Below are positions 31,013 through 46,332 of a DNA stretch of 64,000 bases, piece after piece. The first letter of the stretch is position 1; every line of letters begins with the position of its first letter. The DNA comes from Podarcis cretensis (lineage: Eukaryota): NCBI GenBank assembly GCA_951804945.1, contig OX638158.1:30132001-30196000 (forward strand), in the 5' to 3' direction. A program made the position numbers and the translations under genes. Below the pieces are notes generated by a model. That model was not told where the DNA came from, searched no databases, and worked only from the letters and a program-made list of their open reading frames with translations.

Positions 31013-31214
31013 AAATAAACATAATATATGCATTTTATAATGTGCATGACGACTGTCAGAGCACTTGGGTTTCCTTGGTGCAGAATGTTACCAGACCTGC
31101 TCAGCTTCCTCCTTGGCTTCTTGCCTTTCTGAGCTGCTCTCCCTCACCTCACGTCCCCTTTTCCTGAGCTTTTCTGATGCTCGATACTCACCTGCTCCTT
31201 CTGCTCATTGACAG

Positions 31215-31628
31215 ATCAAACGGGAAATGGGCGAGAACACGCCACACCTTTCCGACGAAGAACTAATGGGTTTGTCGGTGCGAGAACTGAACCACCACCT
31301 GCGGGGCCTGTCCAAGGAGGAGGTAGCGCGGCTGAAGCAGCGCCGGCGCACACTGAAGAACCGTGGCTATGCGGCCAGCTGCCGGGTCAAGCGGGTGTGT
31401 CAGAAGGAGGAGCTGCAGAAGCAGAAGACGGAGCTGGAGAGGGAGGTGGATAAGCTAGCGAGGGAGAACGCCGCCATGCGCCTTGAGCTCGACGCCTTGC
31501 GCGGCAAATACGAGGCGCTGCAGGGCTTCGCCCGCACGGTCACCGCACACGGCACTACTGGCAAGGTGGCCACTGCCAGCGTCATCACCATCGTCAAATC
31601 TGGCTCCAACCAGGCCACATACTCCTAG
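31215..31628 (+). CDS. MAFF: MAFF terminal coding exon (small Maf bZIP; spliced protein 149 aa)
   Basis: Acceptor ttgacAG at 31214. [26 protein letters not shown]...[33 protein letters not shown]...ASVITIVKS contains MAFF-specific residues ([16 protein letters not shown]). Position between PLA2G6 and TMEM184B is syntenic. Confidence 0.98.
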
Positions 31629-42800: not shown

Positions 42801-43880
42801 CAAGAGAAGTTACATAAGAGAATGAAAAGAATGATGTGTTCTGCCTCTTCGAGTGCAACTAGACATCACCCAACAGGTAGTTCCCAAGTGCCCACTCGAG
42901 AATCAGCCAGTGTGGTCCCCCACCCACAATGGATGAGGATGTGCAGCTTGACTCAACAACCTGACTGGAATGTACATCCTTATCCTATGTCCTGAACAAT
43001 TGTGTGTGACTCTCTGAACGGTGGAAATTAGCTTCTGGAAAAAATGTTTCCAAACATGGAGCAAATCCTATTTTCAGAAAATGCACTGTATTCTCTTCAA
43101 GTGTTGGGCAAGGAACCCATCAGAAAACCTACCTTCCACCTCAACAAGCATATTTCACTTAGGCTCACTGTTCCAATCCAGAAGGTGGTTTTTCTTCTTT
43201 TCCCTCTATCATACTTCTCCTACTCTAAAGCAGAAAACCAATCCCTTCTGAAGCACCCAATGCTGATCATTAGCAGAGGCAGAACATTAATGTGACTGTA
43301 TTACTATGGAATATACTGTGTCTAAGAGAATTCTGGTCACAAGCCAAAAGTTGGTCAAAAGTTAATACTGGGGCAACAGTTAGAGACAGGGTTCAATCTA
43401 TATACCAAATTAGGTCTAACAGGTATCTAGAAGTGCATTTTAGTAGTGCAGTTGGGGGAGGGGTTGTTTCTGCTACTTTCAGCCAGCCATATTTGAGACA
43501 ACTTAGGTAAATGGGTAAAGATACAGCCTCATTTTTTCAAGTTTCCCTTGTCTGACCCTTCTTCCATCTGCCTTCCCCATTAACAACAGCAGAAACCCAG
43601 CATACAGAAAGTGTGGTCCCAGATCTTTGTTGTATTCTATGCCAGGTGAATTTAGTGTTCCTTATTAAGTGAAATCTGCTCCAAGTTAAGCCTTTCAAAA
43701 AGAAACTAGGAAAAGACAGTCCAAACCACCTGCATTAGTCACAATGGTCCATGCTTACAATTGGCAACAGGAAGTGCCCATTCCTGACTTGAGCACCATA
43801 TTAAAAAAGGGATATGACCTGTGTTTCTGGTTCAATAAATAAAGGGAAAGTTCCAGGCTGGGCCATGCTTCATCATCTGC
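39890..43880 (-). other. Probable TMEM184B 3'UTR with candidate polyA signals at 41665-41670 and 39911-39916
   Basis: Follows the stop codon. Minus-strand AATAAA hexamers have U/GU-rich context, and there are AU-rich blocks at ~40870-40930 and ~39900-40090. The ends are inferred. Confidence 0.55.
40510..40632. mobile_element. hAT-type MITE copy (family A) inside probable TMEM184B 3'UTR
   Basis: agatgttgctggact...atcatccttgactattggccatgctg...ggagctgtagtccagcaaca...ctggaggg...gttggctacccctg. Confidence 0.7.
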
Positions 43881-44141
<261 letters not shown>

Positions 44142-45187
44142 TTAAGAATGACTGAGGATAGAAGTCTTCCTCTCCCCACCCCCAAATATCCCATTAATGT
44201 GAGCAAAAGCTGCTTGTGGTGCAACTTTTGGCAGTTAACGGACTGGTTACACCAGCCTGGAGGCATGCTAAAGCAAAATGAGTGACATACAACATGGTGG
44301 CAACTCTGGGGAGGCAGCAGGAGCAAGAGATCATCACCTAGGCTGCAATGGGCTGCTTTCAAGGATCAGGAAAGGTTACACAACAGAAAGGTGTAACTAG
44401 AGGGACAGAAAATCCGCTCAGGAGGAAAGGTAACTTATACTAAGTGGCTTGAGCAGCTCGTGGTCTGAAACAAGGGTAGGAGAAAGATAGCAAGAGAAAG
44501 GGAAAGAGGGACTTATGTCCAAAGTAGATCTTCAGTTTCTGCTGGCAATAGGAAGCAAAGATGGAAGTCAGATCAAAGTGGAAGTCACACTTTAGGGTAG
44601 GGAATGGAGAAGATCAGCCATTGCATACACCACATACCAGTGCAGAAACTGCTTCCAGATGTTCCTAACTCTGTCCCAGGAAGTAATCTGATTGTAACTG
44701 GTACCTACTTACTCCAATACTTTTACTTTTAAATTACTACAAAACATACAGTTTGGACAACGTATTGTGGATAACTTTTCTTTTAGCAGGGTGGGGGTGG
44801 ATGGGGGACAAAACACAAGTATACTAATGGCCTAGTCAACATATTGAAGACAATGAGTCAAATAACACCCCCCCCCCACACACACACCTGAGACCCTGGA
44901 GGCTTCTTTAAAGTTTCTATCACAGCAATTTCCTTCTGCTGAAGAGGCAAGTCCCTCCCGCTTTAAAAACAACTTGGCTCTTTAGTAACCAGAGCAGCTG
45001 AGACAAAAACTTCAAAGCCACCTCCCCTTTCATTCATGCTTCTCCTGAAGTACACATACGTGCATTTGTTATACCTAATGGTATGCACACAGGACAGATA
45101 ATGCAGGGAGCTGAAAAGAGTCACAGTAGCAAATAGCGTCTCAACAAAGAGACAGAGAAACAAATGAAGAGAGAGCATGTCACCTAC

Positions 45188-45211
45188 CATATGGCCCATA
45201 TGATGGAACAG
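45188..45211 (-). CDS. TMEM184B: TMEM184B 24-nt alternative microexon (adds AVPSYGPY)
   Basis: ggcgcAG|CTGTTCCATCATATGGGCCATATG|GTAGGT. Phase 1-1 and frame-preserving between the flanking exons. Long upstream pyrimidine tract. Confidence 0.82.
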
Positions 45212-45614
45212 CTGCGCCAGACACCAGAGCCCAAAGCAAGGGAAAGAGGAAAGAGGGGGGGAAACAAGAGAGGAAGATATGGGAAACAACAGTCTGAAAA
45301 GGCATGTTATTCTCAGGCTCTCCACCAGGAAATTACCACAATATTCATCTCTACAGCAAACCAAGTACAATTACTATTAAATACAAAATTTCAGAGGAGA
45401 CTGTCTGTAAAACTCTACTTGGTTCTCCCCTGCCAAATATCTACAAGTGGGTTTCCTAGTCTATTCCATCTCAACTATGCTCTGGACCTAGTCCCCTTCC
45501 CCTAGTCCAGACAGAACTGATACAGTAAACTTTGTTTACCATATCTAAGAAATGGCTCACCATCCCAAATTTTAGCATTAAGAGGAGGAGAAATGTATAG
45601 GAACATAATCACAG

Positions 45615-45770
45615 ACTTTGTGTGCAGAAGGTCCCAGATTCAATCCCTCTAGATAGGGCTGGGAAAGACCACAAACTCAAACTCTGGAGAGCTGCTGCCA
45701 GTCAGTGTAGACAGCACTGAGCTAGGTAGAAGAACAATCTGACTTGGCATAAGCCAGCCTCCTGTGTTCT
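45615..45770 (+). mobile_element. tRNA-derived SINE (Squam2-like)
   Basis: tgcagaaggtcccagattcaatccct...tagggctgggaaagac...ggagagctgctgccagtcagtgtagac...cataagccagcctcctgtgttct. Confidence 0.75.

Positions 45771-46062: not shown

Positions 46063-46332
<270 letters not shown>

What the first reader, a model, noticed from the sequence alone, without database searches (positions are those of the whole stretch)
45030..45300. Hidden 24-nt microexon inserting AVPSYGPY into the TMEM184B C-terminal tail
Seen in sequence: canonical AG and GTAGGT sites flank 24 nt (45188-45211) in exactly the phase (1-1) of the surrounding exons, giving ...RLDAQ-AVPSYGPY-GRCAP.... A long CU-rich tract lies 25-70 nt upstream, with a UGC ~25 nt before the acceptor, and there is a downstream CU-rich tract and a GCATG (~45035-45039). 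Established knowledge: this architecture is typical of PTBP-repressed, SRRM4/RBFOX-activated neural microexons, and TMEM184B is a neuronal endolysosomal membrane protein. Inference: the insert follows the last TM helix and creates VPxY (NEDD4-family WW ligand-like) and YGPY (tyrosine sorting or phosphosite-like) motifs, so it may switch trafficking in a tissue-specific way.
Basis: partly seen in the sequence, partly recalled or inferred. Interest (0 to 1): 0.7.

Follow-up and report, generated by a model that had tools for sequence, protein, structure and literature searches.

The report
Known neural microexon of TMEM184B
This 24-base optional exon, which adds eight amino acids to the endosomal membrane protein TMEM184B, is real and is very likely the reptile copy of a nerve-cell exon already catalogued in human, mouse and zebrafish; what the added peptide does is untested, and it likely offers a tyrosine docking site on an exposed loop.

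Summary
In detail: minus-strand 45211-45188 is a 24-nt, phase 1-1 cassette exon of TMEM184B encoding AVPSYGPY, the only such candidate in the window with a strong distal pyrimidine tract. It is not hidden. Bird records carry the identical peptide, and 101 of 218 anchored vertebrate proteins, sharks to mammals, carry a version. Published tables list the likely orthologues: human HsaEX7010863 (SRRM4-induced), zebrafish DreEX0079584 (neural PSI 58; -63 on srrm3/4 loss) and a mouse 21-nt exon (motor-neuron PSI 0.84; PTBP1 knock-down 0.02 to 0.67; predicted Rbfox target). In a related species' RNA, 12 reads skip it; two runs show a trace over it, with no inclusion junction listed. Models place the insert in a variable loop after TM7, ahead of a conserved helical module, with the fold unchanged. 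The conserved core is hydrophobic-P-x-Y-G-x-Y/F; VPxY is lost in mouse and sharks. Peptide function is unstudied in what I searched, and a recent disease paper used the skipping isoform. No earlier scan note on this gene. Known exon; low interest.

The parts
45188..45211 (-). 24-nt phase 1-1 cassette microexon of TMEM184B, encodes AVPSYGPY
   Evidence: identical peptide in 12 fetched proteins
45212..45236 (-). 3' splice site (CAG) with a pyrimidine-poor proximal zone (13 of 22 pyrimidines versus 16-21 at five other acceptors of the gene)
45236..45238 (-). UGC at -27..-25, likely SRRM3/4 element (inferred)
   Evidence: motif role from 10.1101/2024.09.17.613571 passages
45237..45286 (-). distal polypyrimidine tract, 46 of 50 C/U, with UCUU/CUCU words; likely U2AF/PTBP1 site (inferred)
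45278..45293 (-). the only adenines inside the 82-nt AG-free zone (-82, -69, -67): likely distal branch point (inferred, not mapped)
45182..45187 (-). 5' splice site GTAGGT
45143..45175 (-). downstream CU-rich tract
45059..45064 (-). UGCACG, a secondary RBFOX-type word (motif recalled)
45035..45039 (-). GCAUG at +149 (not a full UGCAUG); possible RBFOX site, weak on its own
46098..46292 (-). upstream exon (195 nt), encodes TM7 and the short helix after it, ends ...RLDAQ
43880..44122 (-). coding part of the last exon: conserved three-helix module, loose tail, acidic dileucine-type motif near the end

Best explanation
This is a conserved optional 24-base exon of TMEM184B that is likely spliced in mainly in neurons and likely adds a tyrosine-based docking site to an exposed cytosolic loop of the protein without changing its predicted fold. 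Shown here: the exon, its frame, its splice-signal layout, conservation of the peptide from sharks to mammals, and skipping in a related species' RNA. Shown by others for the likely orthologues: neural inclusion, activation by SRRM3/4, repression by PTBP1/2, predicted Rbfox targeting. Inferred for this species: PTBP1 on the CU tract keeps the weak acceptor shut outside neurons; loss of PTBP1 and gain of SRRM3/4 at the UGC (helped by RBFOX downstream) opens it. Inferred for the protein (about 0.4): the hydrophobic-P-x-Y-G-x-Y/F core is read by a tyrosine-recognising partner, most likely as a phosphorylation-switchable site (Src-family-like) that tunes endosomal sorting or partner binding, while basic targeting rests on constitutive signals. 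The confidence given is for exon identity and regulation.
For: Sequence and chance test. 101 of 218 anchored proteins carry the insert, 113 skip, 4 have other inserts; 69 of 287 could not be anchored. Human 21-nt exon: PSI 2.5 with GFP, 34.6 with SRRM4 (PMC7935315 supplement row). Zebrafish 27-nt exon: neural 57.9, endocrine pancreas 15.1, muscle 3.5, immune 4.1, nine other tissues 0-0.7; dPSI -63 on eMIC loss; paired by the authors with the human exon (neural dPSI 51.5, eMIC overexpression +78) (PMC12626424 supplement rows). Mouse 21-nt exon: ESC 0.14, NPC 0.09, motor neuron 0.84; Ptbp1 knock-down 0.02 to 0.67, Ptbp1+2 to 0.81 (PMC4755740 supplement rows); Rbfox target flag 1 (PMC5989265 supplement row). 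Skip junction in 12 reads, 4 of 4 runs; depth 0.27 over the 91-nt bin holding the exon in 2 of 4 runs, equal to about 25 letters, i.e. about one read each. Models with and without the insert: same pLDDT 85, pTM 0.81, same helices; insert in a coil of pLDDT about 67. That linker is length-variable in 74-80 of 84 distant homologues. First Tyr kept in 96 of 101 and never replaced by Phe; Gly at +1 in 99; Tyr or Phe at +3 in 95; several teleost versions end YGEF like the ideal Src substrate AEEEIYGEF (PMC4509517 passages).
Against: No inclusion junction was listed in the four raw-read runs, their tissues are unknown and they are of a related species, so neural inclusion in this animal is not shown. 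Orthology to the three catalogued exons rests on gene, length (7 and 9 residues match 21 and 27 nt) and the authors' pairing, not on a DNA alignment made here. The Ptbp flag is 0 in PMC5989265. For the protein step there is no binding or phosphorylation evidence: TMEM184B + phosphotyrosine gave 0 papers; the acidic residues of the ideal Src site are missing and tetrapods have Pro at +2; the first Tyr is replaced by His or Cys in 5 of 101 (teleost records); human mRNA of the 407-aa form rescued zebrafish morphant head, body and axon-tract defects (PMC12440709 passages).
Confidence: 0.85

Rival explanations
1. The insert is a WW-domain ligand (VPxY variant of PPxY) that recruits a NEDD4-family ligase and changes ubiquitination and turnover of neuronal TMEM184B.
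For: VPxY is named as an Rsp5 WW-binding variant (PMC5118918 passage). Pro at -2 is kept in 91 of 101 and Tyr in 96 of 101; the loop is exposed and cytosolic.
Against: VPxY in 65 of 101 proteins, 17 of 35 distinct versions; mouse, vole and shark/ray records have Leu for the Pro although the mouse exon is strongly regulated. It does not explain the conserved Gly at +1 and aromatic at +3. NEDD4 is not mentioned in the main text of the TMEM184B interactome paper (isoform unstated, supplement not seen).
Confidence: 0.2
2. The insert works as a spacer: it lengthens the loop between the post-TM7 helix and the conserved three-helix module, and so shifts that module's movement or its contact with partners such as the V-ATPase; the exact residues matter little.
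For: The loop varies in length across the family (26 to 118 residues for the span in 76 of 77 distant homologues); the exon itself varies from 7 to 10 residues; TMEM184B co-precipitates V-ATPase V0a (PMC12377713 passage).
Against: Residue-level conservation of Y-G-x-Y/F from sharks to mammals is more than a spacer needs; the models show no change of fold (the models were compared by secondary structure and confidence only).
Confidence: 0.2
3. The insert is a YxxPhi-like signal bound directly by an AP-complex mu subunit, adding a neuron-specific sorting route.
For: Aromatic residue at +3 in 95 of 101, Phe in 16; Tyr about 19 residues after TM7 in an exposed loop.
Against: Tyr at +3 (79 of 101) is not a standard Phi residue (consensus recalled); a constitutive acidic dileucine-type motif is present in 162 of 163 proteins.
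Confidence: 0.12
4. The exon is used but has little effect on fitness-relevant function, or is no longer used in this lineage.
For: Most single microexon deletions had small effects in zebrafish (PMC12626420 title and abstract listing); the skipping form rescues morphants; no inclusion junction listed here and no squamate inclusion record among the squamate proteins fetched (3 anchored, all skipping).
Against: Intact splice signals and a peptide identical to that of birds imply purifying selection in this lineage; traces of coverage confined to the exon's bin in 2 of 4 runs.
Confidence: 0.1

Closest known systems
Human TMEM184B microexon HsaEX7010863 (21 nt), zebrafish tmem184ba DreEX0079584 (27 nt), mouse Tmem184b chr15:79194087-79194108 (21 nt)
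   Same: Same gene; mammalian and teleost proteins carry 7- and 9-residue inserts at the same junction with the same Y-G-x-Y/F core; catalogued as neural and SRRM3/4-dependent.
   Different: 24 nt here (an extra Ala at the 5' end, as in birds and frogs); regulation in this species is not measured.
Bird TMEM184B inclusion isoforms (e.g. XP_057276443.1, chicken XP_015140749.2)
   Same: Identical 8-residue insert at the identical place.
   Different: None in the insert; these are annotation models.
SRRM3/4-dependent neural microexon programme
   Same: 3-27 nt, frame-preserving, distal pyrimidine tract and branch point, UGC before the AG, trafficking-related host gene.
   Different: This exon's peptide has no functional study in the papers I could search.
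TMEM184A paralogue (G000:C14, locus L003; name inferred from 60% identity and tail sequence)
   Same: Intron at the same position and phase before the last exon.
   Different: No exon candidate with a Y-G core or a strong distal tract in that intron.
OSTalpha/SLC51A and yeast Hfl1 (PF03619 family)
   Same: Same seven-helix fold (Foldseek E 4.5e-8, TM 0.71 on target); cytosolic C-terminal tail (PMC6279349 passages).
   Different: The Hfl1 Atg8-binding segment lies far down its tail (residues 386-409); nothing here links the microexon to it.

Membership tests
SRRM3/4-dependent neural microexon | 3-27 nt, frame-preserving, canonical AG/GT | tested here: met
   24 nt, phase 1-1
SRRM3/4-dependent neural microexon | Cassette behaviour (skipped in some transcripts, included in others) | tested here: met
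   12 skip reads in 4 of 4 runs of a relative; both isoforms in protein records, 101 with and 113 without. Inclusion in lizard RNA itself is only a trace.
SRRM3/4-dependent neural microexon | Upstream-shifted pyrimidine tract, long AG-free zone, UGC near the acceptor | tested here: met
   feature definition
SRRM3/4-dependent neural microexon | Deep vertebrate conservation | tested here: met
   cartilaginous fish, ray-finned fish, lungfish, amphibians, birds, mammals; one hagfish record lacks it
SRRM3/4-dependent neural microexon | Neural-enriched inclusion in this species | tested here: inconclusive
   Runs of unknown tissue, low depth, related species; met for likely orthologues in published tables
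SRRM3/4-dependent neural microexon | Dependence on SRRM3/4 in this species | not testable with these tools
   Published for human and zebrafish orthologues
WW-domain PY ligand | [LP]PxY consensus (recalled) | tested here: not met
   VPSY here; [LP]PxY in 4 of 78
WW-domain PY ligand | VPxY variant conserved across orthologues | tested here: inconclusive
   65 of 101; lost in mouse, vole, sharks; variant named
WW-domain PY ligand | Binding to a WW domain | not tested
   no complex prediction was run
YxxPhi sorting signal | L/I/M/F/V at Y+3 (recalled) | tested here: not met
   Tyr at +3 here and in 79 of 101; Phe in 16
Src-family phosphosite | Y-G-E-F-like core with acidic residues upstream | tested here: inconclusive
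   Gly +1 and aromatic +3 fit, acidic run absent; phosphorylation not testable
TMEM184/OSTalpha family (host gene) | PF03619 domain and seven-helix OSTalpha fold | tested here: met

The most novel reading that the evidence does not exclude
The form of TMEM184B that dominates in mature neurons is the exon-including one, carrying a shark-to-mammal conserved tyrosine switch beside the conserved helical module, whereas the disease study read here used the skipping form and described it as holding all coding sequence; the neuronal form would have its own partners (kinase, ligase or adaptor) that set endosomal pH control or axon degeneration, and patient variants in this exon or its splice signals would be missed on the standard transcript.
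Probability: 0.3. Interest if true: 0.5.

Novelty: already known. Interest (0 to 1): 0.2.

Why it matters
As a discovery it matters little: the exon is already in RefSeq models and in microexon catalogues, and a squamate copy only fills a gap in a conserved series. [quoted passage not shown] The neuronal isoform of a neurodevelopmental-disease protein appears untested, and that is a cheap experiment.

Tried and rejected
Run search listed no holder on record as RNA: no evidence either way. Assembled contigs of older RNA-like runs were not examined, so inclusion in those samples stays open. Literature: TMEM184B + microexon 0 papers; TMEM184B + phosphotyrosine 0; TMEM184B + splicing 33 and TMEM184B + isoform + neuron 25, seen as listings, none with this exon in title or abstract start. 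Supplements without the gene: PMC12868881 (1 file), PMC12626420 (12 of 13 files), PMC7821500 (8 files, searched by gene name and an Ensembl id that I recalled and did not verify); PMC12871342's supplement could not be read; 7 of 19 files of PMC7935315, 1 of 13 of PMC4755740 and 3 of 15 of PMC5989265 were not searched; bioRxiv supplements are closed and that of 10.1101/2024.09.17.613571 may list this exon. No squamate inclusion-isoform record turned up in three protein searches and two cluster listings (only 15 of up to 654 members are shown per cluster). RNA structure around the exon is no more stable than shuffles (z +1.13); the pyrimidine tract is predicted unpaired. An Atg8/LIR reading, prompted by yeast Hfl1, was dropped: the insert makes no W/F/YxxL/I/V motif in this species and Hfl1's site lies elsewhere. 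No microexon found in the paralogue's intron. Complex prediction was not run: a short motif on a ligase or adaptor is a poor case for it. Earlier scan notes were about unrelated microexon arrays.

Full report
Observation. On the minus strand, window 45211-45188 is 24 nt between CAG and GTAGGT. The upstream exon (46292-46098) ends in phase 1 after ...RLDAQ and the last exon (from 44122) resumes with GRCAP..., so inclusion adds AVPSYGPY in frame. The gene is TMEM184B: the last exon's best hits are named so, a bird protein maps over eight exons plus this one, and PF03619 is met. Upstream of the exon the proximal acceptor zone is pyrimidine-poor, the tract at -75..-26 holds 46 of 50 pyrimidines, no AG occurs for 82 nt, the only adenines in that zone are at -82, -69 and -67, and UGC stands at -27. 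Of 116 YAG-3n-donor candidates on both strands of the window this is the only one with 40 or more pyrimidines in that 50-mer. The UGC and GCAUG words alone are common (37% and 23% background).

Conservation. I pooled 287 proteins from three homologue searches and two cluster listings (the unnamed 50%-identity representatives left out); 218 could be anchored on both sides of the junction, 69 could not (fragments, intron read-through, other isoforms). Of the 218, 113 skip, 101 carry a version of this exon and 4 carry other inserts. The identical AVPSYGPY occurs in 12 records (birds where checked); mammals, lungfish and a caecilian have 7 residues, sharks and rays 7 (VLAYGPY), frogs 8, ray-finned fish 9, a salamander 10. 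The 3' end is fixed and the 5' end varies, which suggests acceptor shifts (inference). Column counts among the 101: hydrophobic V/F/L/I at -3 in 97, Pro at -2 in 91, Tyr in 96 (His 3, Cys 2, never Phe), Gly at +1 in 99, Tyr or Phe at +3 in 95. These counts are weighted by database sampling; among 35 distinct versions Tyr is kept in 30, Gly in 34, aromatic +3 in 29, VPxY in 17. The three anchored squamate records all skip; cluster listings show only 15 members each, so this is no evidence of loss. The paralogue on C14 has the intron at the same place and phase but no such exon.

RNA evidence. Four raw-read RNA runs of a related species (2 studies, 6-12% of each run read, tissues unknown) gave 12 reads across the skip junction, in 4 of 4 runs. 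In the two single-cell runs the bin holding the exon has mean depth 0.27, about 25 letters or one read each, with zero in the neighbouring bins; the tool lists joints only from 3 reads, so no inclusion junction is shown. This is suggestive only.

What is already known. No main text holds both TMEM184B and microexon, but supplementary tables do. PMC7935315 (supplement rows and passages seen): HsaEX7010863, 21 nt, PSI 2.5 with GFP and 34.6 with SRRM4. PMC12626424 (supplement rows and passages): tmem184ba DreEX0079584, 27 nt, neural 57.9, endocrine pancreas 15.1, near zero elsewhere, rising to 34-49 from 72 hpf, dPSI -63 on eMIC loss, classed as conserved with the human exon; it occurs only in the catalogue files, not among the files on the 21 deleted exons. 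PMC4755740 (supplement rows): mouse 21-nt exon, ESC 0.14, NPC 0.09, motor neurons 0.84, Ptbp1 knock-down 0.02 to 0.67, double knock-down 0.81. PMC5989265 (supplement row and passages): 21-nt exon flagged as Rbfox target by a Bayesian network, but not as Ptbp, Nova or Mbnl target. That these are this exon's orthologues is inferred from gene, length and the authors' pairing; I did not align their DNA. The upstream layout matches the described SRRM3/4 architecture (10.1101/2024.09.17.613571 and PMC12871342, passages).

Protein context. AlphaFold2 models of a bird inclusion form and a bird skipping form agree (pLDDT 85, pTM 0.81, same helices). TM7 ends near residue 316, a short helix runs 320-329, the insert (331-338) lies in a coil of pLDDT about 67, and three confident helices follow (344-381) before the loose tail. 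The fold matches OSTalpha. In distant homologues this linker is among the most length-variable stretches of residues 281-385 (74-80 of 84 rows differ in length, against 0-7 in the flanking helices). The tail is cytosolic in the yeast homologue (PMC6279349, passages). An acidic dileucine-type motif (consensus recalled) lies near the C-terminus in 162 of 163 proteins, and tagged TMEM184B reaches endosomes in HEK293T cells (PMC12377713, passages; isoform not stated in what I saw), so basic targeting likely does not need the insert.

How it most likely works. Splicing (about 0.9 for this species, by orthology and layout): PTBP1/2 on the CU tract blocks a weak acceptor outside neurons; SRRM3/4 at the UGC, with RBFOX downstream, promotes inclusion in neurons and to a lesser degree endocrine cells. 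Protein (about 0.4): the exposed hydrophobic-P-x-Y-G-x-Y/F core is a tyrosine docking motif, likely phosphorylatable. The first Tyr is never Phe while the +3 position swaps Tyr and Phe, and some teleost versions end in YGEF like the ideal Src substrate (PMC4509517, passages); against this, the acidic run is missing and no phosphorylation report was found. Rivals: WW ligand (0.2; VPxY is a named Rsp5 variant in PMC5118918, passage, but mouse and sharks lack the Pro), spacer (0.2), mu-adaptin signal (0.12), little effect (0.1). The 407-aa human form rescued zebrafish morphants (PMC12440709, passages); 407-aa primate proteins lack the insert (the human RefSeq protein itself was not fetched), so the insert is probably not needed for gross early development.

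Verdict. Observation confirmed, regulatory guess largely right, motif guesses untested, novelty low: an already catalogued neural microexon. The one lead worth passing on is that the likely main neuronal isoform of this disease gene seems not to have been studied. Interest 0.2.

Noticed in passing
window 46098-46292 (-): The TM7-encoding exon is 195 nt and phase 1-1, so it can be skipped in frame; records from a bird, a frog, a sturgeon and a paddlefish (P0003, P0067, P0079, P0086) join ...FWQ directly to GRCAP, i.e. lack TM7. Not seen in the reads, whose stretch did not reach the exon before it.
   Followed up: no
proteins P0020, P0145 (human), P0035 (gorilla): A different 12-residue Pro-rich insert at the same junction, alone or after the microexon, probably an alternative acceptor of the last exon in primates.
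   Followed up: no
window 45680-45725: A short interspersed-repeat fragment in the upstream intron collects most laid reads, with unrelated loose ends.
   Followed up: no
window 31212-31625 (+): bZIP Maf exon (PF03131, E 7.6e-33), likely MAFF, the usual neighbour of TMEM184B (neighbourhood recalled).
   Followed up: partly
protein P0253 (unnamed representative): A distant TMEM184 homologue with a longer Tyr-rich stretch in the same linker; could be an independent insertion or optional exon.
   Followed up: no
teleost tmem184ba records P0190, P0193, P0194, P0195, P0216: The first Tyr is replaced by His or Cys in these five records, while records named 184B-like/184bb keep it, hinting at relaxed constraint after duplication.
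   Followed up: partly
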